Part shown: in pieces, positions 4,712 to 59,410 of the stretch
How the letters are laid out: every line of letters starts with the position of its first letter
Position numbering within the stretch: position 1 is the first letter of the stretch
IMG/VR virus record: IMGVR_UViG_2758568661_000004
DNA length: 64,000 bases
DNA from: a virus
Lineage: Duplodnaviria; Heunggongvirae; Uroviricota; Caudoviricetes
Reading direction: 5' to 3' (one strand)
Program-made: the position numbers and the translations under genes
Notes under the pieces: generated by a model
The model's input: only the letters and a program-made list of their open reading frames with translations
Told to the model about the DNA's origin: nothing
Databases searched by the model: none

Positions 4712-7700
4712 TCAGTTCACTGTTGTCGTCTGGGCGCTGGTCCACACGGTGTCTTTGTACCCGGCTTTGACCGCGGTGACGGTGACGGTGAGCTTCGCAC
4801 CTTTGTCAGCCAACACCAGCTTGTAGGTCTTCGCGGAGCCGCCGGCGATGGCGGTTCCGTTGCGGAACCACTGGTACTTGAACGTGGTGGTGACGGGGGT
4901 CCAACCGGTTCCGGCTGTCGCGGTCAGCAGCTGACCGACGGTGGTAGTTCCGGAGATGGTGGGCAGGTTCGACCCGGTGAAGGACGGCTTCTCAGCGATT
5001 GCGGCGGTGGCGCTGCTCGTCCAGGACTTCTCGACGTAGAGCGGGTTGATGGCGGTGACCGTGACTGTGATGGTCTTGCCCACCTCGGCGTCCTTCAACA
5101 CGTACGTCTTCGCGGCCGCTCCGACGATGGGTGCACCGTTGCGGAACCACTGGTACTTGAACGTGGTGGGTGCCGGTGTGAGGCCGGACGGGACGGCAGT
5201 CAGTGTCTGCCCGTTGGTGGTGATGCCGGTGATCGCGGTTGTCGCGGTTCCGGAGAACGGGAGTGTCGCACCGGTTGTCCCTTGCCCGTCAACCACCCAC
5301 ACTTTGCTGACATAGGTGGCGCGGATCCCGGTCACCTGTACGGTGATTACCTTTCCGAGGTCAGCTGCAACCTGAACGTAGACGTTCTTGGTGGCTCCGG
5401 TGATGGCAACACCGTCACGCAGCCACTGGTAGGTGTAGCTGGCGGGCATCGGGGTGAGACCGGCGGTGCCGGGCTTCACTGTCAACGTCTGGGCGACGTT
5501 GCGGATGCCGGAGACCGTTGCCGTGGGGGTGCCGTCCAACGGGAGCATCGCACCGGTGGTGAGCTGATCCCCGGCGGTCCATACCTTATTCTGGTAGTTG
5601 ACGCGAACACCGGTGACTTTCACGGTGACCTTCTTGTTGAGGTCGTCGTTCGTCTGGATGTATGTGTTCTTGGTGGCTCCGGTGATGGCAACACCGTCAC
5701 GCAGCCACTGGTAGGTGTAGCTGGCGGGCATCGGGGTGAGACCGGCGGTGCCGGGCTTCACTGTCAACGTCTGGGCGACGTTGCGTATGCCGGAGACAAC
5801 AGCGTCGGGGGTGCCGTCCATCGGCAGCATGTCCCCGGCGATGGTCCCGCCGACAGTCCATGTGCGACTGGTGTATCCGGGTGTTGCTGCGGTCACCTTG
5901 ACCGTGATCGCTTTCCCGAGCTCGGCTGCTTTCACCATGTACAGGTTCTTGGTGGCTCCGGTGATGGCGACACCGTCCGCGTTCCACTGGTACGTGTATG
6001 CCTTCGGTGCGGGGGTGAGGCCGGACGGGGTGACGAGCAGGGACTGTCCGACGTTGAACTTCCCTCCAACACCGGCCGCGGGGATTCCGGCGAAGGTGGA
6101 CAGGACGCCGGCTTGCACCGGGTTGCTGGTCCAAGTGGTGTTCGTCACACCTGGGCGGATTCCAGTGACGGCGACAGTGAGCTGCGCTGTCATGTCGGCG
6201 TCACCGACAGTGTAGGCGGCGGCGATCGCACCGGTGATGGCGGCACCGTTCCGGTACCACTGGTACTTGTAGGAGGCGGGTTTCGGCGCCCAGCCGGCGT
6301 CCGGGACGGCGGTGAGCTTGGTGCCCCATGCGATCGGTGAGGTGCCAACGAATGTGATGGCGGGCTTGTTCGTTCCGGTGAACGGTCCGACCGGCGGGAC
6401 GGTCACCTGTTCGGACATCCAGGTGCGGTTGGTGCGCCCCGTGGCGGTCGCGGTGACAGCGACGGACAAGTTCTTCTGGATGTCCGCGGTGGTGACCGTG
6501 TACGTGTTCTTGGTTGCTCCAGCGATGAGGGCGCTGTCGCGCATCCACTGGTACTTGTATGTGGTGGGCTTCGGAACCCAGTCGTTGCCAGGTGCGGCGG
6601 TGAGAACCGATCCGGTGAGCTTGTCGCCGGTGATGGTGGGCAGTACATTTCCGGCGAAGCTGTTGGCTCCGCCGGCGTTCGCGCCAGCGGTCACGGAGAC
6701 GGTAGCGGTGGCGCCGTCGACGGAATCAACTTTCACGGAAACGCCGAGGGCTGCGGAATTGAAGGTGTCACCTGCACCCCAGACGAAGGAGCGGACACCG
6801 GCGGACACCTGCTTCGGGATGACGACGGATGCGCCGTTCGCGTCGATTTTCAGGATGCGGACACCGGTTCCGACGCGGGGGCGTTCGTTCCCTGACGGGT
6901 TCGGGTAGCGGGTGTAAAGGGCGTTGGCGTCACGTCCGGTGGCGTTGCGGTACTCGACGTAGTAGGTGACGTTCGAGTTGGTGTCGGTGACCTTGATGCC
7001 GCGGGTGCCGGTGCCGGATGCGCTGTTCAGTGTGAACTGGGTGGTTCCGGACGTTGGTGCGGTGATGAGGTCGGATCCGAGCAGGTTCAGTCGTGAGCGC
7101 TGGGTGACGTTCAACGCGGTCAGGGTGGGGTTGGATGCGCCGTTCAGCAGGTAGGAGGCGGCCATTGTGTCGTATAGGTCGCCGTACACCTGGTCGGTGC
7201 AGCCGGTGGTGTAAGGGGCGACACCATCTACGGTGGGGGCGGTGCAGTTGTGGGTGTTGGAGTGGTTCAAGGAGAAGTTGTGACCGAACTCATGGGCGAT
7301 GGTCTGGGTGTTCGCCCCGGGCAGGTCCGCCAGCCAGACGAGGCCGCCGGAGTTGATGCCGGATCCGACGGTGGCGAGTCCGATAGCGCCGGTGGCGCAG
7401 CTGTTGGGAGAGATGACCAGCAGGTGCTTGCCGGGGGTGTTGTAGTACGTGTTCGTGGTGTTGCCGAACTTCGTGGCTGCTTCGGTCCAGAGGTTGTTCT
7501 GGTTGCAGGCGTTTGCGGAGCTGTACCGCTGGACGGTGCCGACCCGGTTGATGGCGGAAACGGATCCGCCAGCCTGGTCGGACCAGAACTCTGACGCGAG
7601 GCTGACGAGGTTGTCCACGGCTGCGTCGTTGAATGGTGCCGCCTGACCGCTGGTGGTGACGACGGCGACGTCGACTGTGTGAATGGCTGGTGTCGCTGCG

Positions 7701-8158
7701 ACTTCCGTGGCGGCGACCTCGACTGCGGCGAGCGGGAACGGGGATTCGCCTGCTTCGTCGGTGATTGTCTGACCGGCTGCGGATGTGGCTTCTACTGTGC
7801 CTGAGGTTCGGATCCCGGCGTCTGCGACGAGGTGGGAATCGGCTACGGCGGTCGCTTCGATGTCGGCGCCGGTTGCGGCGTCAGCGGGCAGGGCGTCAGG
7901 TTCGATTGGTACTTGGTCGCCGGTGTCGGTGACGATGTATGCGATGCGGTCTGTTTCAGCCCCTGTTGCGGTGTCCGGTTGGAGGATGACGAGTTCACCG
8001 GTGATGTGGATGTTCACATCCGTCTGTGGTGCCGTCTCAGCGTGCGCTGGGGTAACAGCCGATGCGATGAGGGTCACGGAGGCGAGAGTCGCGAGAAGCG
8101 CCTTCCGAATCCAAGGACGTCGGGTGGTGCCGTGTTCGAGATCGGTTGTGACGCTCAT
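4712..8158 (-). CDS. secreted metzincin-type zinc metalloprotease with ~8 tandem Ig-like repeats
   Basis: ORF track; signal peptide ...TLIASAVTPAHA; HEFGHNFSLNHSN (HExxHxxSxxH); C-terminal ~85-aa repeats with YxYQWxRDGxAIxGAT...Y...D.G..I.V.VT consensus. Confidence 0.85.
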   Translation of the reverse strand: MSVTTDLEHGTTRRPWIRKALLATLASVTLIASAVTPAHAETAPQTDVNIHITGELVILQPDTATGAETDRIAYIVTDTGDQVPIEPDALPADAATGADIEATAVADSHLVADAGIRTSGTVEATSAAGQTITDEAGESPFPLAAVEVAATEVAATPAIHTVDVAVVTTSGQAAPFNDAAVDNLVSLASEFWSDQAGGSVSAINRVGTVQRYSSANACNQNNLWTEAATKFGNTTNTYYNTPGKHLLVISPNSCATGAIGLATVGSGINSGGLVWLADLPGANTQTIAHEFGHNFSLNHSNTHNCTAPTVDGVAPYTTGCTDQVYGDLYDTMAASYLLNGASNPTLTALNVTQRSRLNLLGSDLITAPTSGTTQFTLNSASGTGTRGIKVTDTNSNVTYYVEYRNATGRDANALYTRYPNPSGNERPRVGTGVRILKIDANGASVVIPKQVSAGVRSFVWGAGDTFNSAALGVSVKVDSVDGATATVSVTAGANAGGANSFAGNVLPTITGDKLTGSVLTAAPGNDWVPKPTTYKYQWMRDSALIAGATKNTYTVTTADIQKNLSVAVTATATGRTNRTWMSEQVTVPPVGPFTGTNKPAITFVGTSPIAWGTKLTAVPDAGWAPKPASYKYQWYRNGAAITGAIAAAYTVGDADMTAQLTVAVTGIRPGVTNTTWTSNPVQAGVLSTFAGIPAAGVGGKFNVGQSLLVTPSGLTPAPKAYTYQWNADGVAITGATKNLYMVKAAELGKAITVKVTAATPGYTSRTWTVGGTIAGDMLPMDGTPDAVVSGIRNVAQTLTVKPGTAGLTPMPASYTYQWLRDGVAITGATKNTYIQTNDDLNKKVTVKVTGVRVNYQNKVWTAGDQLTTGAMLPLDGTPTATVSGIRNVAQTLTVKPGTAGLTPMPASYTYQWLRDGVAITGATKNVYVQVAADLGKVITVQVTGIRATYVSKVWVVDGQGTTGATLPFSGTATTAITGITTNGQTLTAVPSGLTPAPTTFKYQWFRNGAPIVGAAAKTYVLKDAEVGKTITVTVTAINPLYVEKSWTSSATAAIAEKPSFTGSNLPTISGTTTVGQLLTATAGTGWTPVTTTFKYQWFRNGTAIAGGSAKTYKLVLADKGAKLTVTVTAVKAGYKDTVWTSAQTTTVN

Positions 8159-10975: not shown

Positions 10976-11959
10976 TCACCGTGCAGGAATGGTGACCGCC
11001 CACACATCCACGTCAGGTCTCGCCCTCAGGAACCGCACCGAATGTCGGAACGACTCCCCTGACCAGGCGATGTCAGCGGACACCTCCACAACCATGGGCT
11101 CGATCAGGGTGAGGTGGATGGCGTCTTTCATAGTCGAGAAATGGCTTATTGCTCCGGGCTTCACCACTGGAGGCCACGGGTGCGCGGCCAATGGTGGGAG
11201 CAGCAGCGGCGCCAACTGCCTCACCTGCACTGGGGATAGAGGTGAGCTTCTCCCCGCAATGCGAAGCTTCCCGTTCACCCGGAAACCCACCACCAGCTCC
11301 TGCGGACGGTCTCGCGTCCCGATGACCGCCCCGGCGATCGTGTCGATGGTGTCCCGATGTTTCACCTTCACCCATTCGCGGCGGCCGCCGCTATAGGCGC
11401 CGTCCAACGCTTTGATGACCAGACCTTCCACTCCGACACTGTGTAAAGCGCCCATCCATTGGGCGGCTTCATTCGGGTCGCGGGTGGCGGAGTTCACGGA
11501 CAGCGGCGGCAGCCATCCTTTCCCGAGTTCCTCCAGCAGTTCCCGACGGACACGAAGTAACTGCCGGCGGATGTCATGGCGTGGGATGGCTAGGAGGTCG
11601 AACGCAGCGAACGATGCAGGCTCCTGCCTGGACAGCTCCCCGGCGCTGCGTTCACCTCGAGCCATCCGTCTTTGCATCGCGTCGAAACTGAGCCGCCCTC
11701 CCGACCAGATGACCGTCTCCCCGTCAACCACGCATCCGTCCGGGATCATCCGGGCTGCGGCGTTCACAATTTCCGGGAACAGCTGTGTGAGCTCCTTCTT
11801 CTGCCTCGACCACAGTCTGGTGTCACCGTCCCGGACGATGACGGTGCGGAACCCATCCAGTTTCGGTTCCGCTTGGGCGTCAACCAGACTTGGGATGGTC
11901 GCGGCTGGTCGGGCGAGCGCTACGTCCACGGGGACAGTGAACGTTTCCGGCAGCGCCAT
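10976..11959 (-). CDS. ATP-dependent DNA ligase (LigC/LigD ligase-domain-like)
   Basis: ORF track; motif I EPKLDGFR (KxDGxR), EGLVIK, WVKVK. Confidence 0.8.
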   Translation of the reverse strand: MALPETFTVPVDVALARPAATIPSLVDAQAEPKLDGFRTVIVRDGDTRLWSRQKKELTQLFPEIVNAAARMIPDGCVVDGETVIWSGGRLSFDAMQRRMARGERSAGELSRQEPASFAAFDLLAIPRHDIRRQLLRVRRELLEELGKGWLPPLSVNSATRDPNEAAQWMGALHSVGVEGLVIKALDGAYSGGRREWVKVKHRDTIDTIAGAVIGTRDRPQELVVGFRVNGKLRIAGRSSPLSPVQVRQLAPLLLPPLAAHPWPPVVKPGAISHFSTMKDAIHLTLIEPMVVEVSADIAWSGESFRHSVRFLRARPDVDVWAVTIPAR

Positions 11960-12010: not shown

Positions 12011-15000
12011 CTATTTTCCCTTGACCGTCGCCGGTGGTGCAGCCTTGACCACCGCTGTCGGCAGCGACGTGTACGTCCTGGACGAGTACGTCGCCTTGGA
12101 TACGGTTGCCTCAACAGTGAACGTGTGCCCAATGTCTGCTGCGGTCACCGTGTGGTAGTTCGTGCCGGTGATGGCCACTCCGTCCCGGAACCACTTGAAG
12201 ACCGTCTTCGTCGGTGTCGGGAGGACTCCGGCGGGTGTGTTGGCGACCAGTTTCCCTCCGACGACAGCTTCACCTGTGATGACGGGGAGGTTCTCGCCGA
12301 CGAACGGCGGCAACGGCTTGATGACCGGGGTCGGGTTGCTCATCCATGTCTTCGTCTTGTAGTCCTTCCGAGAGCCGGTGATGGCGACGGTCAGGGTGTG
12401 GCCGACGTCAGCTGCGACCGGCAGGTAGGACGACTGCTTCCCCAGAGATCCGGGAATCAGGACGCCTTCCCGGTACCACTGGTATTTGTACGACGTGGGT
12501 GTGGGTGTCCACTTGCCGGGCTTCGCGTAGATGCGGTGCGCCAGCTCGTAGGAGCCTTCGATGGAGATGCCGCTGGGGTTTCCGGGGATGATCGTCCCGG
12601 GGTTGTCGAAGCCTTTGCCGCCGGGGTCTACCGTTCCGACCCAGACGCCGTTCTCCCAGCTTCCGCCGCTTTCATGGTTCGGGTCGGTGCTGGATCCCAT
12701 CTCCGGGTCACCGATTCCGTACTCCCGGTGTTCGTCGCCTTCCTCGAAGGAGAACCAGGGGAGGTCGTCGCCGGCGAACTCGAGGAGACCGACGATTTTG
12801 ATGGCGATGGTGACGATCCATACACGTGATTCGAAACCTACGCGTGTGCCTGTGATCTTCACGCCGATGAGCGTTCCGAGGTCATCTTCCACGAGCTTGT
12901 ACACCTTCGCCGTGGCCTTCGGGATGTCCACCCCGTTCCGCTGCCACTGGTATTTGAAGGAGGGTGCCGGGGTCAGCCCTGTCGGCGGGAATGCAGTCAG
13001 GGACTGGCCGACCTTGGCGCTGCCGGTGATGTACGGCCTACCTTCGCCGGCGAATGTGGACTGGCCGATCATCGAGGAGGAATCCGAGACGCTTGTCCAT
13101 GTCCGGTCGATGTAGAACTGCCGTGAGGCGGTGATCGACACGGTGAGTTTCTTGCCGGCGTCCGCAGCTGTGGGTGCGTACGTGGTCTTCGTTGCTCCGG
13201 CGATGGGCTGCCCGTTAAGGAACCACTGGTACTTGTAGGAGGTGGCTGATGGCGCCCATCCGTCACCCTTGACCGCGGTCACTGTGACACCGGTCTTCGG
13301 CGGGGCAGGAGACAGTGTGGGCAGGTTGTCGCCGGTGAACACGTCAGGTCCTGCCGTGACTGTGTCCCCTTCACTCTTCCAAGTGCGGTCAGGCAGTCCG
13401 ACCTTGTGGGCTGTCAAGGCGACGCTAAGAACATGGTCCACGTCGGCTGCGGTCTGCGTGAAGGATCGGGCTGTAGCCCCGGCGATCAGCTGGCCGTCAC
13501 GGAACCACTGCACGGTCACTGTGGTGGGTGTGGGTGCCCATCCTGTCCCGTTGGTCGCTGTAAGGACTTTCCCGATGCGGCGTTCCCCGGTGATGGTGGG
13601 GAGGTTCTCGCCTGCGAACGAGGTCAGGTCGGTGGTGACGAGGGTGCTCTCCGATGTCCAGGTGCGTTCCTTGACGAGGGGTCGCGTTCCGGTGACGGCG
13701 ATGTTCAGGACATGTCCGACGTCGGCGGCGACCTGGCGGTATGTGGCGGCTGTGGCGCCAGCGATAGCTTTCCCGTCACGGAGCCATTTGTAGGTGTACG
13801 CAGTCGGTGTTGGTGCCCAGTCCACTCCGGGTGCTGCGGTGAGCAGCTGGTTCAGCTGGTGGGTTCCGGTGATTGTGGGGAGGTCTTCTCCTGTGAAGTC
13901 GGGAACATCTGTGGTGATTTCGGTGTCTGAGCTCACCCATTCGCGGTTGTCGTATGCGGCCCGGATGTAGGTGATGCCGACGGAGGTGTTCGTTCCGATG
14001 TCAGCGCTGGTGAGTGTGTAGTTTCTTGAGGCGGCTCCGGTGATGGCGACGCCGTCGCGGTACCACTGGTACTTGGTTGTGGTCGGTGTTGGTGCCCACC
14101 CTGCCCCGGGGACGGCGGTCAGGGCCTGCCCGATGCTTCGGATTCCGGTGATGGTGGGGAGGTTATCTCCGGTGAACTTGTCCCAGCCGATCACTTCGGA
14201 CCCTTCAAGGGACGTCCATGTGGTTGCTTTGTAGCCGGTGACGGTGCCGGTGACGGCGACGCTGATGTGGTGGGTGACATCATCCGCGGTCAGCGTGTAT
14301 GTGACGGCTGTTGCCCCAGGGATCGGTTGTCCGTCGCGGAGCCATACGTAGGTGAGCGTTGTCGGGACGGGTGTCCATGTGGTCGCCGGTGTTGCTGTGA
14401 GTGTCTTGGTGATCCGCTGTTCGCCAGTGATGGTGGGCAGGTCCGTTCCGGTGACCTTTGGCAGGTCTTCGATGGTTCCGGTCGGGTCACTGACGGCTGT
14501 GTGCGCGGTGTATCCGGACTTGGAGCCGGTGACGCTGACACTGAGGGCGTGTCCGACGTCAGCAGCTTGCAGCAGGTACGGCTTGCCGACAGCGCCGGCG
14601 ATAGGGGCACCGTCGCGGAACCACTGGTAGGAGTAGTTGGTCGGCGCGGGAGCCCAACCGGCACCCGGCACTGCGGTCAGGGTCTGCCCGAGCCGGAGCG
14701 TTCCGGTGATTGTCGGCAGTGTGGTGCCGTCAATTGAACCGATACCGGCGATGGTGACCGGGTTCGATGTCCAGGTGCGGTCGACGAACACGTTCCGTTT
14801 TCCTGTCACGGCGACACTGATCTGCTTGCCAGCGTCTGACACCTGTGTGGTGAACGTCTTGGTGGTGGCGCCGGAGATGGGTGCGCCATCCCGGAGCCAC
14901 TGGTAGGTGTATGAGGTGGGTGACGGCGACCATGATGCTGGGTTCGCGGTCAGTGTCTGCTCGACGATCAGGACGCCGGTGATTGTGGGGAGATTGTCGC

Positions 15001-16825
15001 CGGCGAAGGTGGGGTTAGCGATGATCGCGAGCGGCTCGCTTGTCCAGGTGCGGTCTTCGTATGCGAGCTTCGAACCGGTGATGGCTGCGGTGATGGCGTG
15101 ACCTGCGTCAGCGGCGGTGACGATGTAGTTGCGGCTTTCAGCGCCGGGGATGGCCACTCCGTCACGGAACCACTGGTAGCTGTTTCCTGAGGGGATGGGC
15201 GACCAGGTGGACGGGTTCACGGCGAGGTTTTCACCGACCCAGGGGTTCCCGGCGATTGTGGGGAGGCCTTCTCCGGTGAATTTGGCGAGGACCGGTGTGA
15301 TGAGGGTGATGTCGATCTTCGCTGTTCCACCGGCTGCGGTGACAACGTTGATCTTCACTTTCCCCGACGTTGACGTGAACGTTGACGCGACCGGCCAGAC
15401 TGCACTGCGTGTTGTGGACGTGGTGTACGGGAGGACGACACTGGACTGGTCGGCGCCGTACTTGAGGATGCGGACACCTGTCCCCATTTTCGGCAGGACG
15501 CCGGATCCTTGGTCGGGGAGTTGGGAGTAGATGGATCCGGTGTCCCGGTAGGTGGCGTTGCGGTATTCGACGTAGTAGTGGGCACCGGTTTTCGGGTCGG
15601 TGATGTCAATGCCTCGCACGCCTGTCGTGGCGGATTGAGGGTAGATGACAACCGATGTCGTCTCGGTCAGTGAACCAGATGGCAGGGAGACTGGTGTGAC
15701 ACTCTGGTATGCGTTCAGGCGGAGGCGGTGTGTGACGTTCAGCGCGGGGGTGTTCGTGTTGCCCTTGCAGGTGGGTGCGCAGATGAGGTAGCCCATCCCC
15801 ATGGGGTCGTACAGGTCGGCGTACTCCTGGATTCCGCAGCCGGAGGCACCGTCTGATGCCGGGTAGGTGCAGCTCTCCACGTTGGAGTGGCGGAGGGAGA
15901 AGTTGTGGCCGAGCTCGTGGGTGATGGTGAGTTCGTCTGCGAGCGGCAGGGTGGTGGTTCCGCCGAGGGCGGTCCAGAGAACACCACCGTTGCTCATGCC
16001 AGCGCCGATGTTCGCGAGCCCGGAGTCGAGTCCGCATTCTTGTGGTGCGATGACGAGAAGGTGGTTGGTGGTCGAGTTGATGTAGGAGCTGTAGCCCACG
16101 CGGCCGAACTTGGCGGCGGCTTCATTCCAGAGTGACCATTTGTCGGCGGCGCACGGGTCGAGGGTGGTGGAGTACCGCTTGATGGAGGACAGGTAGATGG
16201 AGGGCAGCTGCCCGGTCTGGTCGTTCCAGTAGGTGGCGGATTTGGAGACCATCGAGGTGATGAACGCGTCTGTGACTGGGGAGACACGACCTTCGCTGTC
16301 CGTTACGACAGCGACTTCGAGCTGGTGGTTGGCCGATACTGCTGTCGCGGCGGCAACCTTCGGTGTGATGGTCCCTGTTGCGAGGGTGAGCGGCTCTCCT
16401 ACGGTGGTGGAGGCTTCAACGATGTTTTGCCCGGCGGTGGAGGTGGCTTCCACGGGGCCGGGTGGTGCGTTGCCGGCTTCTTGGAGGGTGGCGTCGGTGG
16501 GTGTGGCGATTGCGTCTACGGTGGCGCCGGATGTGGCGTCGGCGGGGATGAGGTTGCCGTCGACGGGGATGGTGGTTCCGTCGGCGGTTTGGACGACGTA
16601 GCTGGTGTCGGTGGCTGTGTTCTGGCCGATGGCACCGGTTGTGGTTTCGGCTTCGACGACGGCCAGTGTTCCTTGGATGTGGATGGTGGTGGGGTCGGGT
16701 TCGGCGGCGTTGGCGGGGACTGCGAATCCGGTGATGAGTACGGCTGCGGCGACGAGTGACGCCAGCGATCGCCACGCCCAGGAGTGTTCATTCCGGGCTG
16801 TTCGTGGGACCGTTGTGGTGCTCAT
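12011..16825 (-). CDS. secreted metzincin-type metalloprotease with ~12 tandem Ig-like repeats (paralog)
   Basis: ORF track (12011..17023) trimmed to MSTTTVPRTARNEHSWAWRSLASLVAAAVLITGFAVPANA; HELGHNFSLRHSN; same repeat consensus as 4712..8158. Confidence 0.85.
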   Translation of the reverse strand: MSTTTVPRTARNEHSWAWRSLASLVAAAVLITGFAVPANAAEPDPTTIHIQGTLAVVEAETTTGAIGQNTATDTSYVVQTADGTTIPVDGNLIPADATSGATVDAIATPTDATLQEAGNAPPGPVEATSTAGQNIVEASTTVGEPLTLATGTITPKVAAATAVSANHQLEVAVVTDSEGRVSPVTDAFITSMVSKSATYWNDQTGQLPSIYLSSIKRYSTTLDPCAADKWSLWNEAAAKFGRVGYSSYINSTTNHLLVIAPQECGLDSGLANIGAGMSNGGVLWTALGGTTTLPLADELTITHELGHNFSLRHSNVESCTYPASDGASGCGIQEYADLYDPMGMGYLICAPTCKGNTNTPALNVTHRLRLNAYQSVTPVSLPSGSLTETTSVVIYPQSATTGVRGIDITDPKTGAHYYVEYRNATYRDTGSIYSQLPDQGSGVLPKMGTGVRILKYGADQSSVVLPYTTSTTRSAVWPVASTFTSTSGKVKINVVTAAGGTAKIDITLITPVLAKFTGEGLPTIAGNPWVGENLAVNPSTWSPIPSGNSYQWFRDGVAIPGAESRNYIVTAADAGHAITAAITGSKLAYEDRTWTSEPLAIIANPTFAGDNLPTITGVLIVEQTLTANPASWSPSPTSYTYQWLRDGAPISGATTKTFTTQVSDAGKQISVAVTGKRNVFVDRTWTSNPVTIAGIGSIDGTTLPTITGTLRLGQTLTAVPGAGWAPAPTNYSYQWFRDGAPIAGAVGKPYLLQAADVGHALSVSVTGSKSGYTAHTAVSDPTGTIEDLPKVTGTDLPTITGEQRITKTLTATPATTWTPVPTTLTYVWLRDGQPIPGATAVTYTLTADDVTHHISVAVTGTVTGYKATTWTSLEGSEVIGWDKFTGDNLPTITGIRSIGQALTAVPGAGWAPTPTTTKYQWYRDGVAITGAASRNYTLTSADIGTNTSVGITYIRAAYDNREWVSSDTEITTDVPDFTGEDLPTITGTHQLNQLLTAAPGVDWAPTPTAYTYKWLRDGKAIAGATAATYRQVAADVGHVLNIAVTGTRPLVKERTWTSESTLVTTDLTSFAGENLPTITGERRIGKVLTATNGTGWAPTPTTVTVQWFRDGQLIAGATARSFTQTAADVDHVLSVALTAHKVGLPDRTWKSEGDTVTAGPDVFTGDNLPTLSPAPPKTGVTVTAVKGDGWAPSATSYKYQWFLNGQPIAGATKTTYAPTAADAGKKLTVSITASRQFYIDRTWTSVSDSSSMIGQSTFAGEGRPYITGSAKVGQSLTAFPPTGLTPAPSFKYQWQRNGVDIPKATAKVYKLVEDDLGTLIGVKITGTRVGFESRVWIVTIAIKIVGLLEFAGDDLPWFSFEEGDEHREYGIGDPEMGSSTDPNHESGGSWENGVWVGTVDPGGKGFDNPGTIIPGNPSGISIEGSYELAHRIYAKPGKWTPTPTSYKYQWYREGVLIPGSLGKQSSYLPVAADVGHTLTVAITGSRKDYKTKTWMSNPTPVIKPLPPFVGENLPVITGEAVVGGKLVANTPAGVLPTPTKTVFKWFRDGVAITGTNYHTVTAADIGHTFTVEATVSKATYSSRTYTSLPTAVVKAAPPATVKGK

Positions 16826-16911
16826 GTGCCGGAGACATGCGGCGAAACGCCCCCGTTTGGGGTACAAGCCGTGAAATGTCGGTTCGGGGAGGCTGGACCC
16901 GCCTCGAGCAG

Positions 16912-19900
16912 CTACCCCTTCGAGGCGGTGAGCCCGCAGCTGACGACGTCTCCGGCGGCGAGGGTGATGCTGACGCTGGGGCCTTCGATGGTGATGCCGG
17001 AGGCTCGGGTCTTCGAGGTGCACACCGGATGTGGGTAGCCTGCGAACTCGTCGTTGGTCTCAGCTTGGAAGTACCAGAGGTCACCGGCGGCGCGGATGAA
17101 GCTGGATGTTCCCGGATTGTCTGGTGTGGCGTTCAAACGGAAGTCGTTCTGGTCGTCTTCGTCTTCGTTGCTGTAGGAGATGTTCCCGTCGAACTTGAAC
17201 GACCCGGCCCCGCCGGTCACGTTCTGCGTGACGATGATCTCCCCGGCTTCCGGTGCGAACCCTGTCGGTGAGTAGGTGACAGGTTCGGTGTCTGCGGTGG
17301 TGAAGCTGTCGACCTGGGTTTCGGCGTTCCAGGCGGTGACGGTGACGTTGATCACATGGTCGATGTCCTCGGGCTGCAGTTCGTACATGCCGGAGTTCGC
17401 GTAGACGATCGGTTCGCCGTCGCGGAGCCACTGGAACAGCAGGTAGTCGGCTTTCGGCGCCCACGACCAGCCGGTGTTGACGGTGAGGGTGGCGCCGTTC
17501 TTGCGGATGCCGGAGATGGCCGGGTTGATGACGGCTGGGGCGGGCGGTTCGTCAGCGAGGACGGTGAGCTGGTCGCCGTTGGATGCCCAGCTGCGCTCAT
17601 CCCATCCGGTCTTGACGGCGGTCACGGTGACGGAGATGGTGCGGCCGGCGTCGAAGTCCGTCTGTGTGTACCACTCGGTTCCCGACGTTTCGAAAGGGTC
17701 GCCGTCGCGCATCCAGGTGTACCGGTAGGACTCAGGGGTTGGAGCCACGGTGCCCGCGGGAATGGCGTGGAGCTCAGACCCGACCACCCGTTCGCCTGTC
17801 AGGGTGGGGGTGGCGTCGCCGTAGAAGAGGCCGTTGGTGGCTTCGTCCCCGGCGGATACGGCTTTCTGGTCGATGACCCCGGCGCGGTGGGCGGTGGTCT
17901 CCACGGAGATGACGTGGCCCTTGTCGGCCGTCCGCTGCGTGTAGTGGTCGCGGTTCTCCCCTGCCACGGCGACACCGTCTCGGAGCCACTGGTACGTGAA
18001 CGACGTCGGCGCTGGTGCGTACGAAGCTGCGGCCGGGACGGCGGTGAGTGTCCCGGTCATCGTCCGGTAGCCGGTGATGGTGGGGCGGCCGCCGTCAGCG
18101 ACGACGAAAGCTCCCGTGGTCACCGGTGCAACTGCTGACGCTGCTGTTCTCTCCGTGTACCCGAACTTCCGGGCGGTGACCTTCACTGTGACGACGCTTG
18201 CGTTGTCGGCGAGTTGCTGTGTGTACGTCTTCCCGGTAGCTCCGGGGATGGGCGCGCCGCCACGGAGCCATTGGTAGCTGTAGGTGACGCCGAGGTTCGG
18301 TGCCCATGCCGGGGTGGCGGCTGTCAGGACGGAGCCGATCTTTCGGGTTCCGGTCACCACAGGCACGGCTGTCCCGGTGAACGTCGACAACTTTCCGATG
18401 GTCGCACTGTAAACGGATTCGATGTTCCTGCCCAGGTACCCGGCCCGGTGGGATCCGACCTTCACCGTCAGTCGGTACCCTCGGTCTGCGGCGGTCGCCG
18501 TGTATGTCTTCCCGGTCGCTCCGGGGATCACCGCAACTGACCTGTAATACGGGTCATTCCGGTACCACTGGTAGGTGTACGACGTTGCTGCCGGCGCCCA
18601 GGTCGAACGGGCTCCCGCAGTCAGGGTGCGTCCAACGAACGGCTCGCCGGAGATTAACGCCGGGTCGGCACCGACGAACACGTTCAGGGTCGCGGGGCCG
18701 GCGGCAGCCTTCCAGGTTCGGGACGTGGTGCCTTTCCGGTCAGCTGCGACGTTCACGGTGATGACCTTGCCGACATCTGACCCGGTCTGCTTGTAGGTGG
18801 CGGCGGTTGCCTTCGGGATGGCGGCGCCGTTCCGGAACCACTGGTACCGGTACCCGGTCGGTTTCGGCGACCAGCCGCTGTTCGGGTGCGCGGTCAGCGT
18901 GGACCCGTTCGCGCGGGTGCCGGTGATGGTGGGGAGTCCGTCACCGACGAATACGTTCAAGCCGACGGTCTTAGCTACGACGGGGCTGGCGTCTACCTTT
19001 GGCAGGTACCCGGAGCGCGCTGCGGTCAGTTTGACTGTGACTGCCCGGTTGAGGTCAGCTGCGGTGATGACGTAGGTGGCGGCGGTTGCCTTCGGGATGG
19101 CTGTCTCGTCTCGGTACCACTGGTACGTGTACGTGGACGGGGTGGGGTTCAAGGTGCTGACTTGGGCTGCGGTGAGTTTCTGTCCGACCTGACGGTAGCC
19201 GGTGACCTCTGCGGTGAGTGTGCCGGCGAATACCGGGGCTGCCGGGATGAGGACTCTGGGTGTCAGCGACACTTTCGCGTTGTGGAAGGGGATTGTCCCT
19301 CCGACCAAACCCATGACCTGGTGGCCGGTGTCAGCAACGGTCAGTTTGTAGCTTTGGTTGGTCGCTCCGTCGATGGCGATGTTGTCTCGGTACCACCGGT
19401 AGTAGTAGGCCGTTGGTTTGGGTGTCCAGTCGGTGCCGGGGTGGGCGGTGAGCGTCTGGTCAAGTCCGGGTGTGCCGGTGATTGTCGCGTTTGAAGTGCC
19501 GGTGACCTTGGGCGTTGTCAGAACGGTGACAGGGTCGCTGGTTCGGACGCGGGTCTCGTATCCGTCCCGCATGGTTGTGACGGCCACGGTCAGCTTCGTC
19601 CCGATGTCAGCTGCAACCGGTTTGTAGGTGGAACTCTGTGCGTACGGGGCGGTCGCGATGACGTTGCCGTCCCGGAACCACTGGTAGGTGTACTTCTGCG
19701 CGGCGGGAGTCCATCCGGCGCCGTCCTTGGCGGTCACCTCCCCGAGAGCCCAGGGGGAACCTGTGATGACGGGAGCCGTGTTGCCGGTGAACTTGGCTTG
19801 GTTGACGTCTGTGAGTGTGACAGTGACTGATGCGCTGGCAGCTGTCTTCGAGTTCACCTTCACTTTCACACCACCGGAGCGTGACGTGAATGTGTATCCG

Positions 19901-43431: not shown

Positions 43432-44196
43432 TCAGCCTTGTGCTGCGACTTGGGCTGCGATCACCTTCGGCGGTCCAGCTGACAGGGGTCGCCAGTTGTC
43501 GAACACACCGAACGCTGCAATTCGTTTCGCGGTGGAGTACAGCGGGGTGCAGGTGGTGAGGGTGATGACCCGTTCGGTGGGTGTCTGGTCGACGACCGGT
43601 TCCCCGTTCATCCCGGGGACGGCATCCAGCACCTCCACATGATCTGGGGTGACGATCTCCTCCTGCTGGAACAGGTACGTGTACCAACCATCCTTCGTTT
43701 GGACGATGATCGGGTCACCGGGCACAAGCTGGTCAATCCAGTGAAGACCTCCGCCGTACGCGGACCGGTGGGACGCGACAGCGAAGTTCCCGTACGCGCC
43801 GGGCAGGTTGGTGTCCGGGTAATGTCCGAGGCCGAGCTCGAATGAGTTCAGGACGTCATGTCCGATGCCTTCGGCAATGTTCCGCCGGTAGTCAGGACCG
43901 AACCTGGGGACGTAGAGGACAGCGAAAGCTTCACCGTTGCCGGCTGGTGAGTCGGCGACCGGCGGTTCGCCGTAGTCGATGGTGTAGTCGGGGCTGTGAG
44001 GGGTGACATCCTTCACCCATTCCTGGGAGGTGGCGTCTGCCGCTGAGGATTGCTGGTTCACGTAGATGGCGTCCTGCCAGAACAGCTTCCATCCGAGGAA
44101 CAGCAGGATGAGGACCGCTGCGGTCATCAGCACCTCACCGGAGATGGTGAACACGGTGGCGCGCGAACGGCGCTTGGCTGGTGCGGTGTCAGTCAA
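43432..44196 (-). CDS. sortase (class E-like transpeptidase)
   Basis: ORF track; N-terminal TM; catalytic TLTTCTP (TLxTC) motif; TTG start behind AAGGAC SD. Confidence 0.8.
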   Translation of the reverse strand: MTDTAPAKRRSRATVFTISGEVLMTAAVLILLFLGWKLFWQDAIYVNQQSSAADATSQEWVKDVTPHSPDYTIDYGEPPVADSPAGNGEAFAVLYVPRFGPDYRRNIAEGIGHDVLNSFELGLGHYPDTNLPGAYGNFAVASHRSAYGGGLHWIDQLVPGDPIIVQTKDGWYTYLFQQEEIVTPDHVEVLDAVPGMNGEPVVDQTPTERVITLTTCTPLYSTAKRIAAFGVFDNWRPLSAGPPKVIAAQVAAQG

Positions 44197-58342: not shown

Positions 58343-58600
58343 TCAGGCCTCCGGAAGCCAGATGATGGTGAACGTGGGTGTGCGGCCGCCGAAGGAGCGG
58401 GAGCGGATGAGGTTGGCGGCGTCCTGCGTGTGGCCGGTGCCGACCTGCATGAACTTGACGTCCCCGCGCTGGTCCATGCCCAGCTGGATGGCGGCGCCCA
58501 TGTTGTCGCGGAGGATGGTGCCGACAGGGATGCGGGCAAGGTCGATGGCGTCGGTGAGGACTTCTCCGACGTTGTGGGTGGCCTGCAAGGTTGTGCTCAT
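58343..58600 (-). CDS. hypothetical protein (first gene downstream of the regulatory hub)
   Basis: ORF track (..58630) trimmed to MSTTLQATHNVGEV; minicistron ATGACCACCATATGA ends ATGA on start. Confidence 0.5.
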   Translation of the reverse strand: MSTTLQATHNVGEVLTDAIDLARIPVGTILRDNMGAAIQLGMDQRGDVKFMQVGTGHTQDAANLIRSRSFGGRTPTFTIIWLPEA

Positions 58601-58758
58601 ATGGTGGTCATGCGCAGGGTTGACGCCCATCCAACCGGATTACATCGTTACACCTTGATTACCGCTTCGCTGTAACAGGCTTTTTCCCGGTCAGCGCTTT
58701 GTTTTTAGGCTCGTTACATCCGTTACACTTCATAGGTGCATGTATATGGGAGGAAGAT

Positions 58759-58794
58759 GACATGTTTCGACGCCGGCCTGGGCGCAAACATGTC
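58759..58794 (+). terminator. plus-strand hairpin (GACATGTTTCG...CGCAAACATGTC) followed by TCTTTTCTCTT
   Basis: Sits inside a 17-codon mini-ORF preceded by GGGAGGAAG SD at 58748. Confidence 0.45.
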
Positions 58795-58957
58795 TCTTTT
58801 CTCTTAACGTAAGTAATAATGAATTGTAATCTTGTAATATATAGATAGAAGGGTGTCTCGCCCTACTCCCGTCTGGGATCCACCGTTACGCAGGTGGTGT
58901 AACGAGATGCAATCGGAGTAATCCGGGGCGACTCGTCGCGCGTTTCGGCGCTCATCT

Positions 58958-59061
58958 GTCAACCCTGGTTGACAAGACTGATTCTGAGGCCATCTGGGCG
59001 TCAACCGTGGTTGACACACGAAGTCAACGCGGGTTGACGTTTCCTGTCAACGTAGGTTGAC
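58958..59061. repeat. array of four 16-bp palindromes GTCAAC-N4-GTTGAC (operator, iteron or centromere-like)
   Basis: Copies at 58958-58973, 59000-59015, 59023-59038, 59046-59061 (spacing 42, 23, 23 bp); extra half-sites at 58620 and 59067. Confidence 0.7.
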
Positions 59062-59102
59062 GAATGCTTGACCGTTATCCCGGCCGCATCCCGGAAACAG
59101 CG

Positions 59103-59128
59103 AAAGCCGCCCACAGTCGGACGGCTTC
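59103..59128 (-). terminator. hairpin terminator after 59150..59410 gene
   Basis: AAGCCGTCC-GACTGTG-GGCGGCTT followed by TCGCTGTTTCC on minus strand, 25 nt after stop. Confidence 0.5.
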
Positions 59129-59149
59129 ACACTACGGATCGTCGGCAGC

Positions 59150-59410
59150 TCAGCTCGACTTCCACTCCCGGAACACCCGCGCCAGCGACTTCCCGCCAAG
59201 CCAGTCGAGACGACCGATCTGGGCATTCATCACCTTCGTGTCGGCGTACACCGCACACTCCTCAAGGACATCATCACGGAGCGCATACCCGGCGTCGACG
59301 AGTGCACGGGCAACCACCAGCTCCGGGGTCTCCCGGTGGGCGGCGTTGGACAGCTGCGCGTCACGGACGATCTTCGCGATTACCTGGGTCTGGTCCTGCG
59401 TGGTGGTCAT
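59150..59410 (-). CDS. hypothetical protein
   Basis: ORF track (..59443) trimmed to ATG behind AAGGAAGG (MTTTQDQTQVIAKIV). Confidence 0.5.
   Translation of the reverse strand: MTTTQDQTQVIAKIVRDAQLSNAAHRETPELVVARALVDAGYALRDDVLEECAVYADTKVMNAQIGRLDWLGGKSLARVFREWKSS

What the first reader, a model, noticed from the sequence alone, without database searches (positions are those of the whole stretch)
58600..59130. Regulatory hub: AT-rich stretch, four evenly spaced GTCAAC-N4-GTTGAC palindromes, a mini-ORF/terminator cassette and flanking terminators
Between two minus-strand operons lies the only strongly AT-rich segment of the window (58795-58852, about 25% GC against ~63% overall). Next to it are four 16-bp palindromes with perfect GTCAAC/GTTGAC arms at 58958, 59000, 59023 and 59046. 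The last three are exactly 23 bp apart, about two helical turns, and extra half-sites lie at 58620, 59067 and 59785. On the plus strand at 58748-58812 a strong SD (GGGAGGAAG) precedes a 17-codon ORF that contains a hairpin followed by a T-tract, with a candidate promoter TTGTTT-18-TACACT at 58699-58728; this looks like a small RNA, leader peptide or attenuator unit. The segment is bracketed by a minus-strand terminator at 59103-59128 and by the first motif copy of the next operon at 58609. The layout fits a repressor operator array or immunity-like switch, a plasmid origin (iterons plus a DNA-unwinding element) or a parS-type centromere, and is the best candidate control or replication locus in the window.
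Basis: seen in the sequence. Interest (0 to 1): 0.75.

Follow-up and report, generated by a model that had tools for sequence, protein, structure and literature searches.

The report
Operator array in conserved non-coding module
Four perfect copies of a DNA palindrome known as the binding site of a small actinobacterial repressor family (ClpC2/RelI type) sit in the largest gene-free stretch of an uncharacterised plasmid-like element, inside a roughly 0.5 kb non-coding unit also found in a Leifsonia genome, and most likely mark where a protein encoded elsewhere controls this element.

Summary
Four perfect GTCAAC-N4-GTTGAC palindromes lie at 58958, 59000, 59023 and 59046 (0.02 expected), with no site of two or fewer mismatches elsewhere in the window. 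The only AT-rich patch (22% GC; next lowest 43%) and the largest intergenic gap (519 bp) are here too.

The palindrome is a known motif: the experimentally shown ClpC2 operator of Actinobacteria. In at least 68 of the 120 genome loci retrieved it occurs as a pair 26-30 bp apart, directly upstream of a leaderless ClpC2-N-terminal/RelI-type HTH gene. The window array does not fit that layout. Its spacing is 23/23/42 bp, it forms no promoter, and no such HTH gene exists in about 88 kb of the replicon.

The same palindrome also serves TetR-type promoters and iteron-like arrays beside Rep/O-like genes, so the motif alone does not name the binder.

A Leifsonia genome carries a homologous intergenic module (three palindromes, the same sequence blocks, an AT-rich core) between unrelated genes.

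Best reading (about 0.35): a cis-acting control module whose operator array recruits a trans-encoded dimeric HTH repressor to gate transcription between two operons. Replication origin, oriT and centromere are not excluded. The mini-ORF/terminator cassette is real here but its hairpin is not conserved.

The parts
58958..58973 (.). Palindrome P1, tGTCAACCCTGGTTGACa (perfect 18-bp palindrome with its flanks)
   Evidence: Read on the minus strand its N4 is CAGG, the commonest N4 of distal ClpC2-type operators. With its downstream flank it aligns to the first Leifsonia palindrome.
59000..59015 (.). Palindrome P2, cGTCAACCGTGGTTGACa
   Evidence: Its left flank TGGGCGTCAACC is repeated in inverted orientation at 58618-58629. 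The P2-P3 spacer ACACGAA resembles those of L159 (ACCACGAA) and L158 (AAACGAA).
59023..59038 (.). Palindrome P3, aGTCAACGCGGGTTGACg
   Evidence: It lies 23 bp from both P2 and P4.
59046..59061 (.). Palindrome P4, tGTCAACGTAGGTTGACg, followed by gaATG
   Evidence: N4 = GTAG is the commonest N4 of the gene-proximal ClpC2-type operator (15 of 68). No coding ORF follows: the six-frame HMM search for the HTH family was negative.
59103..59128 (-). Hairpin downstream of the 86-aa gene (59150-59410); probable weak intrinsic terminator of the upstream operon
   Evidence: Fold -24.6 kcal/mol on the minus strand against -14.5 on the plus strand. Not called by the consensus terminator scan.
58875..58926 (.). 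Left conserved block in gene direction: CCGGATTAC ... CGTTAC-N9-GTAACGG-GATCCCAG
   Evidence: Collinear with Leifsonia CCGGAGTTACC / GTTAC-N9-GTAACGG..GATCCCAG. The arms 58918-58926 and 58896-58905 are perfectly complementary to 58635-58643 and 58645-58654.
58795..58852 (.). AT-rich core (22-25% GC), with TTGTAAT x2 and CTTAACGTAAG
   Evidence: Lowest GC of the whole window. The homologous position in Leifsonia is also the only AT-rich spot in 20 kb.
58747..58812 (+). SD (GGGAGGAAG), 16-codon mini-ORF (58762-58812), and a strong hairpin followed by a T-rich tract
   Evidence: z -4.6. The block CTTCCTCC..TATA..TGCACC on the other strand is conserved in Leifsonia. The hairpin is not conserved there.
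58635..58728 (.). Right-hand repeat block: GTTACA / TGTAAC copies (58647, 58671, 58713, 58722) and GATTAC copies; 58635-58654 is the right arm of the module-bounding inverted repeat
   Evidence: 5 of the 7 GTTACA copies in the window lie in 58647-58903. Inverted repeats I12, I15, I16 and I18.
58609..58629 (-). TGGGCGTCAACC half-operator abutting CTGCGCATG, the element-wide promoter-like motif. The ATG at 58600 lies 8 nt after the motif and is the probable leaderless start of the downstream gene (58343-58600).

Best explanation
The region is a self-contained cis-acting control module (about 58605-59130) of a large, uncharacterised plasmid-like element of a Micrococcales bacterium.

At its upstream end, in the direction of transcription, it carries four high-affinity sites for a dimeric helix-turn-helix protein. 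The sites are of the actinobacterial GTCAAC-N4-GTTGAC type, whose best-documented user is the ClpC2-N-terminal/RelI family of small autorepressors. No such protein is encoded nearby, so the binder acts in trans. It is either the host's chromosomal copy or a gene on an unseen part of the replicon.

Inferred mechanism: the protein occupies the three phased sites and the fourth site cooperatively. The array lies just downstream of the terminator of the upstream operon. A fifth half-site, carrying the same 12-nt flank, abuts the promoter-like motif of the downstream gene. Together these would block read-through and/or loop onto the downstream promoter. The operon that starts at 58600 would then open only when the repressor is lost, for example through ligand binding or proteolysis under stress.

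Shown: the sites, their uniqueness in the window, their identity to the family's operator consensus, the absence of a cognate gene, and the conservation of the module.

Inferred: who binds, and the effect on transcription.
For: The palindromes are four perfect copies, far beyond chance, and occur nowhere else in the window even with 2 mismatches.

The same 16-mer is the published ClpC2 operator. That work describes two copies overlapping -35/-10, a leaderless gene, and binding shown by EMSA (PMC10030653).

Of the 120 genome loci returned by the pattern scan, at least 68 carry the pair 26-30 bp apart, 1-6 nt upstream of a roughly 70-aa HTH gene; one locus has a 240-aa ClpC2-like gene. The profile of that family matches PDB Rv2667/ClpC2 (5e-5) and RelI (4e-10).

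The window sites fit the extended consensus (c/t)GTCAAC-N4-GTTGAC(a/g). They include the commonest proximal (GTAG) and distal (CAGG) centres.

Spacing of 23-24 bp with the spacer A(C/A)(C)ACGAA is seen in a bona fide family locus with three operators (L159). It is also seen in a chromosomal promoter with no adjacent HTH gene (L158), so the site can be used in trans.

Micrococcales genomes (Arthrobacter, Microbacterium, Cryobacterium, Okibacterium, Galbitalea, Georgenia) carry the HTH gene with its operator pair.

A phage contig (L008) combines its own family HTH with a separate array of five sites, which shows that mobile elements use such arrays.

The 12-mer flank of P2 recurs inverted next to the downstream promoter-like motif.

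The module is conserved in Leifsonia, with three palindromes.
Against: The array does not reproduce the family's defining promoter architecture. The spacing is 23/23/42 bp, not 27-29 bp, and no -35/-10 pair is formed on either strand (my reading; one search found no promoter-like site).

No ClpC2-like HTH and no TetR gene is present in about 88 kb of the replicon.

The palindrome is not specific to one protein family. It occurs in TetR-type divergent promoters and in iteron-like arrays beside wHTH Rep/O-like or plasmid Rep/Mob genes. Most of the 42 metagenome arrays spaced 21-26 bp lack the ClpC2-like HTH.

The genes flanking the homologous Leifsonia module are unrelated to those in the window. 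That pattern suits an autonomous cis site (origin, oriT or RNA gene) better than the operator of a particular operon.

The putative promoter next to the first Leifsonia palindrome (TAAAAT) is not conserved in the window.
Confidence: 0.35

Rival explanations
1. Vegetative replication origin. The four palindromes are iterons for an initiator, the 58-bp AT-rich patch is the unwinding element, and the GTTACA/GATTAC repeats bind accessory or host factors.
For: Three sites are phased at 23 bp, about two helical turns. The region holds the only AT-rich patch in 64 kb and the largest intergenic gap. A second clustered repeat family is present.

The identical palindrome at 21-24 bp spacing occurs inside or beside wHTH replication-protein-like genes and small Mob/Rep plasmids in metagenome contigs. 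A viral contig (L003/L007) has four perfect palindromes plus a near-copy flanking an AT-rich hairpin next to a DnaC-like gene.

The module is conserved as a unit between unrelated genes, as expected of an autonomous cis site.
Against: No Rep, initiator or DnaA-type gene was recognised in about 88 kb by Pfam or PHROGs. The array-adjacent proteins from other contigs have no homologue in the window.

The AT-rich patch is about 105 bp from the nearest palindrome rather than adjacent to it. Cumulative GC skew rises monotonically with no inflection.

The Leifsonia copy lies in a 701-kb contig, about 59 kb from its end.
Confidence: 0.2
2. Origin of transfer or another DNA-processing site (oriT, ssDNA initiation site or recombination site) at the head of a leading-region-like block of co-oriented establishment genes.
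For: Nearly all genes run one way. They include an orphan D12 methylase, an ATP-dependent ligase, SprT-like and DUF4192 genes, and UvrD and DnaJ genes.

The module is bounded by perfect inverted repeats: 58635-58654 against 58896-58926. The 371-nt region folds far better than shuffles, with DNA z -3.4 to -3.75 and RNA plus-strand z -5.4.

In Leifsonia the module sits two genes after a strand switch, at the head of a run of same-strand genes. Only the roughly 8 kb that follow it, and a second same-strand block about 95 kb away (L179), were actually seen.
Against: No relaxase, coupling protein or recombinase was found in the sequence available. The long hairpin is not conserved in Leifsonia (z -0.4 to -0.5). 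No recognisable nic-site consensus was established. In the window at least 14 kb of mostly same-direction genes lie upstream of the module.
Confidence: 0.12
3. Partition centromere: repeated palindromes bound by a small centromere-binding protein.
For: A clustered array of identical palindromes, unique in the replicon, with phased spacing.
Against: No ParA-type ATPase, ParB or small RHH/HTH partner is recognisable in about 88 kb. The 86-aa upstream protein is an ORFan with a low-confidence helical model.
Confidence: 0.07
4. A non-coding RNA, or a leader-peptide attenuator, transcribed on the plus strand (antisense to the genes). The palindromes would act as its downstream operators.
For: A strong SD and a short ORF keep their position in both the window and Leifsonia. 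The window hairpin has z -4.6 and a T-rich tail. The plus-strand RNA fold of the whole module is much better than the minus-strand fold, -138.8 against -118.4 kcal/mol.
Against: No Rfam family matches, even at E = 1. The peptides differ: MFRRRPGRKHVSFLLT against MLTASAERYSDSLLNYLT. Neither the Leifsonia hairpin nor the fold of its whole module is significant. The proposed promoter is weak and is not conserved. The T-tract would end the RNA before the ORF's stop codon.
Confidence: 0.1

Closest known systems
clpC2 operator (clpC2o) of Mycobacterium and other Actinobacteria, bound by ClpC2 (Rv2667); same HTH family as the RelI antitoxin (Rv2664)
   Same: It has the same palindrome core and flanks, (C)GTCAAC-N4-GTTGAC(G/A). 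The commonest centre sequences are also shared. Multiple adjacent copies occur in both, in an actinobacterial high-GC context.
   Different: The known operators come as a pair about 27-29 bp apart that forms the -35/-10 of a leaderless autoregulated gene. Here there are four copies at 23/23/42 bp, with no promoter formed and no cognate gene within about 88 kb, on a mobile element. The paper's text writes the spacer as n5. Every locus I retrieved, including a 240-aa ClpC2-like gene, has N4.
Iteron-type origins such as phage lambda ori (four dyad-symmetric initiator sites phased about two turns apart, next to an AT-rich region)
   Same: Both have four dyad-symmetric sites, three of them here phased at 23 bp, with an AT-rich segment nearby. 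The identical palindrome is used in iteron-like arrays within O-like genes in metagenome contigs. The comparison with lambda rests on general knowledge.
   Different: No initiator gene surrounds or adjoins the array. The AT-rich patch is about 105 bp away. There is no skew signal.
Host-repressor operators captured by mobile elements (for example LexA boxes in prophage and integron promoters) and the repeated 'stoperator' roadblock sites of Cluster A mycobacteriophages
   Same: The concept is shared: a mobile element carries binding sites for a repressor, placed to block transcription. Phage contig L008 shows a five-site array plus its own HTH. The comparison itself rests on general knowledge.
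   Different: The sites here form a single cluster rather than being spread across the genome. The binder is unidentified. No effect on transcription has been shown.
TetR-family operators in divergent promoters of Mycolicibacterium and Rhodococcus (L076, L085)
   Same: They use the same GTCAAC-N4-GTTGAC palindromes, in pairs.
   Different: They are 43-45 bp apart, between a TetR gene and a monooxygenase gene. The window encodes no TetR family member.

Membership tests
ClpC2/RelI-family HTH operator (clpC2o) | 16-bp palindrome (C/T)GTCAAC-N4-GTTGAC(A/G) | tested here: met
   Four perfect copies. Flanks and centres fit the matrix built from 68 chromosomal pairs.
ClpC2/RelI-family HTH operator (clpC2o) | Two copies about 27-29 bp apart overlapping the -35 and -10 of a leaderless gene | tested here: not met
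   Spacings are 42, 23 and 23 bp, which puts the -35/-10 elements 13-14 or 32-36 nt apart. The genome loci give 27 (40), 28 (51) and 29 (15) bp.
ClpC2/RelI-family HTH operator (clpC2o) | Cognate ClpC2-NTD-like HTH gene directly downstream, or elsewhere on the element | tested here: not met
   An HMM of the family run against all six frames of the window, L001, L180 and L184 gave a best E of 0.02-0.08, in non-coding frames. The same HMM did detect the divergent phage homologue in L008 at 1e-11.
ClpC2/RelI-family HTH operator (clpC2o) | Binding by the protein | not testable with these tools
   Needs EMSA, footprinting or ChIP.
Iteron-type replication origin | Three or more initiator sites phased at an integral number of helical turns | tested here: met
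   Spacing of 23 bp, twice.
Iteron-type replication origin | AT-rich unwinding element adjacent to the iterons | tested here: inconclusive
   A unique patch of 22% GC exists, but it lies about 105 bp from the nearest palindrome.
Iteron-type replication origin | Initiator (Rep/O-type) gene in cis | tested here: not met
   No Pfam or PHROG replication family was found in any called gene of the window. There are no BLAST hits to array-adjacent wHTH proteins from other contigs. ORFan genes cannot be excluded.
Iteron-type replication origin | Strand-composition inflection at the site | tested here: not met
   Cumulative GC skew rises monotonically across the window. Because the genes are co-oriented, this test is weak.
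parS-type or type Ib centromere | Repeat array plus a neighbouring ParA-type ATPase and a centromere-binding protein | tested here: not met
   The array is present. No ParA, ParB or CbiA family was found in about 88 kb.
Frpo-like single-strand promoter / long ssDNA hairpin | Long imperfect hairpin conserved among homologues | tested here: not met
   The window gives z -3.4 to -5.4. The Leifsonia homologue gives z -0.4 to -0.5.
Leader-peptide attenuator / small RNA | SD, short ORF and terminator hairpin conserved among homologues; a known RNA family | tested here: inconclusive
   The SD and the short ORF are conserved in position. The hairpin is significant only in the window. There is no Rfam match.

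The most novel reading that the evidence does not exclude
The roughly 0.5-0.65 kb unit is a previously undescribed, portable cis-acting module of Micrococcales mobile elements. It comprises an operator array, GTTAC/GATTAC repeats, an AT-rich core and bounding inverted repeats.

On this reading it couples a captured host stress-repressor operator (ClpC2/RelI type) to the start-up of a very long array of leaderless genes. That array is driven by an element-specific promoter motif: CTGCGCATG here, CCGCACATG in Leifsonia. Functionally the module could be a switch, or a new kind of origin or oriT, that reads the host's proteostasis state.
Probability: 0.2. Interest if true: 0.7.

Novelty: new variant of a known kind. 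Interest (0 to 1): 0.5.

Why it matters
The palindrome itself is known, but its setting is new. Here it forms an orphan four-site array inside a conserved non-coding module, on an element made almost entirely of ORFan genes.

If a host ClpC2/RelI-type repressor binds the array, a mobile element would be shown to tap a repressor family so far known only for autoregulation, antibiotic sponging and antitoxin function. That would give the family a trans-acting regulon.

If the module proves instead to be an origin or oriT, it would define the replication or transfer site of an uncharacterised class of Micrococcales elements.

Either way the module is a compact target of about 500 bp that can be cloned and tested by EMSA, reporter fusions, and replication or mobilisation assays.

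Tried and rejected
DNA similarity. The region (or 19 kb around it) has no match in the INPHARED phages or the PLSDB plasmids, in near or distant mode.

Rfam. No match at gathering score for the window, and none at E up to 1 for the region. tRNA and tmRNA: none.

Flanking genes. The downstream 85-aa product has no homologue in the 5.8-billion-sequence clustered protein collection. The upstream 86-aa product has none among 1.8 billion cluster representatives. The AlphaFold model of the 86-aa protein is helical but low-confidence (pLDDT 61), so no fold search was run. hhalign of the ClpC2-like profile against the 86-aa protein, and against the 63-aa protein upstream of the Leifsonia module, found no relation.

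More homologues of the module. Two block-derived DNA patterns found nothing relevant in viral contigs. nhmmer over all fetched loci found only Leifsonia. The Arthrobacter homologue of the gene downstream of the Leifsonia module lacks the module.

The 494-aa 'shared' protein. It turned out to share only an Ig-like domain with the Leifsonia proteins, so it is not evidence that the elements are related.

Circular replicon of 66.8 kb. Rejected. The start of the window lies on a different Logan contig.

Two-sequence consensus folding. Too poorly aligned to support any structure.

Alignment A4. Discarded because I had typed two C-termini from memory. It was rebuilt as A5 from retrieved sequences only.
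Full report
**Context of the window**

The window is high-GC (about 63%) and almost every gene lies on the minus strand. Recognisable functions are few:
- two M23 peptidases, a VanZ-like protein and a sortase;
- three giant Ig/M12B-like surface proteins;
- an ATP-dependent ligase and a D12 methylase;
- SprT-like, DUF4192, SPFH/flotillin and AI-2E transporter genes;
- a Panacea-domain protein.

The remaining genes have no family match.

The window matches Logan contigs of run SRR7126390, but it spans two of them. Contig _18 covers window 6237-73066 and contig _11 covers the window start and beyond. The replicon is therefore larger than the window. In all, about 88 kb could be inspected.

The closest annotated relatives are Microbacterium plasmids, with 30-38% identity for DUF4192 and the same layout of many small co-oriented genes. 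No phage structural genes were seen. I treat the replicon as a plasmid-like or integrative element of a Micrococcales host.

**Check of the observation**

All the main features are present.

- Palindromes. Four perfect GTCAAC-N4-GTTGAC palindromes lie at 58958, 59000, 59023 and 59046. Shuffles give 0.02 expected. Spacings are 42, 23 and 23 bp. No further site with up to two mismatches exists in the 64 kb, although 3.7 are expected.
- AT-rich stretch. The 58-nt windows starting at 58786-58793 have 22% GC. The next lowest place in the window has 43%.
- Intergenic gap. The 519-bp gap between the genes ending at 59150 and starting at 58630/58600 is the largest real gap.
- Plus-strand SD, 16-codon ORF and hairpin. 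All are present, and the hairpin is strong (z -4.6).
- Proposed promoter. It is weak: 19-nt spacer, poor -35, and not reported by the scan.
- Minus-strand hairpin at 59103-59128. It folds at -24.6 kcal/mol but has a poor T-tract.
- 'Extra half-sites'. They are no commoner than the background of about 1.1 per kb. One is an exception. The half-site at 58619 is part of a 12-nt exact inverted copy (TGGGCGTCAACC) of the flank of the 59000 palindrome (0.01 expected). It abuts the CTGCGCATG motif of the downstream gene.

**What the palindrome is**

- The spacing is sharply peaked at 27-29 bp.
- In at least 68 of these loci the pair lies 1-6 nt upstream of a roughly 70-aa HTH gene (MTEATDLA...GWSWQEIA..LGVSRQAVHKK), usually leaderless. 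One locus has a 240-aa ClpC2-like gene instead.
- The first palindrome supplies TTGACA as the -35. The centre of the second (commonly GTAG, giving TAGGTT) supplies the -10.

This is exactly the architecture published for the clpC2 operator, which ClpC2 binds in EMSA (PMC10030653).

A profile of the small HTH proteins matches the solved Rv2667/ClpC2 N-terminal domain (5e-5) and the RelI antitoxin (4e-10). The RelI paper describes the family as ClpC2-like and specific to Actinomycetes (PMC13284704).

The four window sites fit the extended consensus. They include the commonest proximal (GTAG) and distal (CAGG) centres.

**Where the window array departs from that family**

- The spacing is 23/23/42 bp. 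No combination places a TTGACA-like hexamer 16-19 nt from a TANNNT hexamer on either strand, and the promoter scan found nothing.
- No ClpC2-like HTH is encoded in the window or in the flanking sequence I could fetch. The same HMM does detect a divergent phage homologue.
- No TetR-family gene is present either.

**The motif alone does not name the binder**

- The same palindrome occurs in TetR-type divergent promoters of Mycolicibacterium and Rhodococcus.
- It occurs at 21-26 bp spacing in 42 metagenome contigs with GC from 0.33 to 0.69, and most of these lack the ClpC2-like HTH.
- Some of those arrays lie inside or beside wHTH replication-protein-like genes, or on small Mob/Rep plasmids. These look like iterons.

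Several results still favour the ClpC2-type reading for the window:
- A bona fide family locus (L159) has three operators spaced 28 and 24 bp, with the spacer ACCACGAA.
- A chromosomal promoter (L158/L160) has a 23-bp pair with the spacer AAACGAA and no adjacent HTH gene.
- The window's P2-P3 spacer is ACACGAA.
- A phage contig (L008) carries its own family HTH with a 27-bp operator pair. It also has five tandem 27-bp repeats, each containing the palindrome, inside its capsid-protease gene.

**A homologous module in Leifsonia**

The pattern scan also returned Leifsonia sp. Leaf264 (L062, which equals L181 9336-10000). A 665-bp intergenic region there holds three palindromes, spaced 64 and 25 bp. 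After them come blocks in the same order as in the window, read in gene direction:
- CCGGA(G)TTAC(C);
- GTTAC-N9-GTAACGG..GATCCCAG;
- an AT-rich core with CTTAAGTTAAG / CTTACGTTAAG;
- CTTCCTCC..TATA..TGCACC;
- G(G)TAAT(T)CCGG;
- and then, within about 30 nt, the next gene.

A local alignment of the parts after the palindromes scores 48. Composition-preserving shuffles give 24.1 +/- 3.4, with a maximum of 38.

In both genomes this is the only AT-rich spot in about 20 kb or more. In both, GTAAC/GTTAC-type motifs are clustered. The flanking genes are not homologous.

The two elements are probably of the same kind. Both carry a DnaJ-UvrD gene pair. Both have a related promoter-like motif 8 nt upstream of leaderless ATGs: CTGCGCATG in the window and CCGCACATG(T) in Leifsonia.

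No third homologue was found.

**Structure**

The 371-nt window segment folds far better than shuffles. The plus-strand RNA fold is -138.8 kcal/mol (z -5.4), the minus-strand RNA fold gives z -3.4, and the DNA folds give z -3.4 to -3.75. Perfect nested inverted repeats contribute to this: 58615-24/58958-67, 58635-43/58918-26 and 58645-54/58896-905.

The Leifsonia module does not fold significantly (z -0.4 to -0.5). Its counterpart of the mini-ORF hairpin is not significant either. Only the bounding inverted repeat is shared. I therefore give little weight to the long-hairpin, Frpo-like or structured-RNA readings.

The SD plus short ORF is conserved in position but not in peptide sequence.

**Interpretation**

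What is shown:
- a unique cluster of four perfect sites of a well-documented actinobacterial operator type;
- its place inside a conserved, self-contained non-coding module;
- its position between the terminator-like hairpin of one operon and the promoter-like motif of the next;
- a fifth half-site of identical flank at that promoter;
- no cognate protein gene within about 88 kb.

My best-supported reading is that a trans-encoded dimeric HTH protein binds the array and gates transcription across this junction, by roadblock or by looping to the half-site. The most likely binder is a ClpC2-NTD/RelI-type repressor, either of the host or from an unseen part of the replicon. I put this at about 0.35.

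The strongest argument against it is that the module is conserved while its neighbouring genes are not. That pattern is what one expects of an autonomous cis site. It keeps an iteron-type origin (0.2), an oriT or other DNA-processing site (0.12), an RNA or attenuator unit (0.1) and a centromere (0.07) in play.

None of these can be settled by sequence analysis with only two homologues.

**Novelty and score**

The palindrome is already known. What is new is the orphan four-site array at a non-canonical spacing, embedded in a conserved non-coding module on an ORFan-rich mobile element. I class this as a new variant of a known kind.

Interest is moderate (0.5). The finding gives a concrete, easily testable locus in an uncharacterised class of elements, and it hints at trans use of a repressor family known only for autoregulation. 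The mechanism remains inferred.

Noticed in passing
window, 35 sites (e.g. 295, 627, 3831 ... 58609, 59441, 60963 on the minus strand; 62608, 63654 on the plus strand); also L180 and L184: CTGCGCATG occurs 35 times against 0.86 expected. It is always oriented with the gene that follows, including the only two plus-strand genes. The extended form is (t)TC-CTGCGCATG-N7-(A)TGA. In about ten copies the ATG 8 nt after the motif is the start codon, which implies leaderless mRNAs. It looks like an element-specific promoter that does not fit the TANNNT -10. The Leifsonia element has an analogous CCGCACATG(T)-N8-ATG motif.
   Followed up: partly
L008 (IMGVR_UViG_3300031902_000417) 290-640 and 2393-2516: A phage contig encodes its own ClpC2-NTD-like HTH (101 aa) behind a 27-bp operator pair. 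It also carries five perfect tandem 27-bp repeats, each containing GTCAACCGATGTTGAC, in frame inside the prohead protease/capsid gene, where they encode ETSTDVDSS repeats. These may be repressor roadblock sites within a late gene.
   Followed up: partly
Genome loci L013-L132 (e.g. L033, L035, L060) and PDB 8ada / 9sdc: Stand-alone proteins of about 70 aa, homologous only to the N-terminal part of ClpC2, sit behind the same operator pair as full-length ClpC2. This suggests the N-terminal HTH is the operator-reading domain. The ClpC2 paper instead discusses a positively charged surface of the C-terminal domain. The paper's text also gives the spacer as n5, while every retrieved locus has N4.
   Followed up: partly
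L042 and L118 (uncultured Actinomycetes MAG contigs): The operator pair, with a leaderless ATG, lies directly upstream of a 323-aa ABC-transporter ATPase. Its first residues (MTDAAGLA) resemble the HTH family's N-terminus. L158/L160 have a 23-bp pair in front of a 1139-aa gene. The family may therefore have regulon members beyond autoregulation.
   Followed up: no
window 11874-11885: A third exact copy of the 12-mer TGGGCGTCAACC (0.01 expected in the window) lies inside the 5' part of the ATP-dependent DNA ligase gene (10976-11959, minus strand).
   Followed up: no
L182 / L181 about 9752 (Leifsonia sp. Leaf264, LMMR01000005.1 about 59.5 kb): The independent Logan assembly of the same strain (ERR1103913_13, 123.5 kb) begins inside the AT-rich core of the Leifsonia module, while the NCBI contig runs through it. 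This could be a coverage drop in AT-rich DNA, or a real repeat or junction at this point.
   Followed up: no
L184 13566-15004 (window coordinates 67317-68755, beyond the window end): A plus-strand pair of a 270-aa protein and a 208-aa RES-domain protein interrupts the minus-strand gene array. It looks like a RES-Xre type toxin-antitoxin module.
   Followed up: no
window 4712-8158, 12011-17023, 16912-21312, with sortase at 43432-44196: Three giant proteins (1148, 1670 and 1466 aa) combine reprolysin-like M12B metallopeptidase signatures with many Ig-like repeats. A sortase is encoded on the same element, and L180 continues with He_PIG-repeat proteins. This is an unusual surface-protein load for a plasmid-like element.
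   Followed up: no
L003 1427-1600 and L007 6673-6850 (IMG/VR contigs, GC 0.54-0.58): Four perfect GTCAAC-N4-GTTGAC palindromes (three GTCAACTATAGTTGAC, one GTCAACCTGAGTTGAC) plus one near-copy (gCAACTATAGTTGAC) lie at 30-bp spacing. They flank an AT-rich inverted repeat about 240 bp upstream of a DnaC/IstB-like ATPase gene. The layout looks like an origin or early-control region built from the same palindrome, in a non-actinobacterial virus.
   Followed up: no
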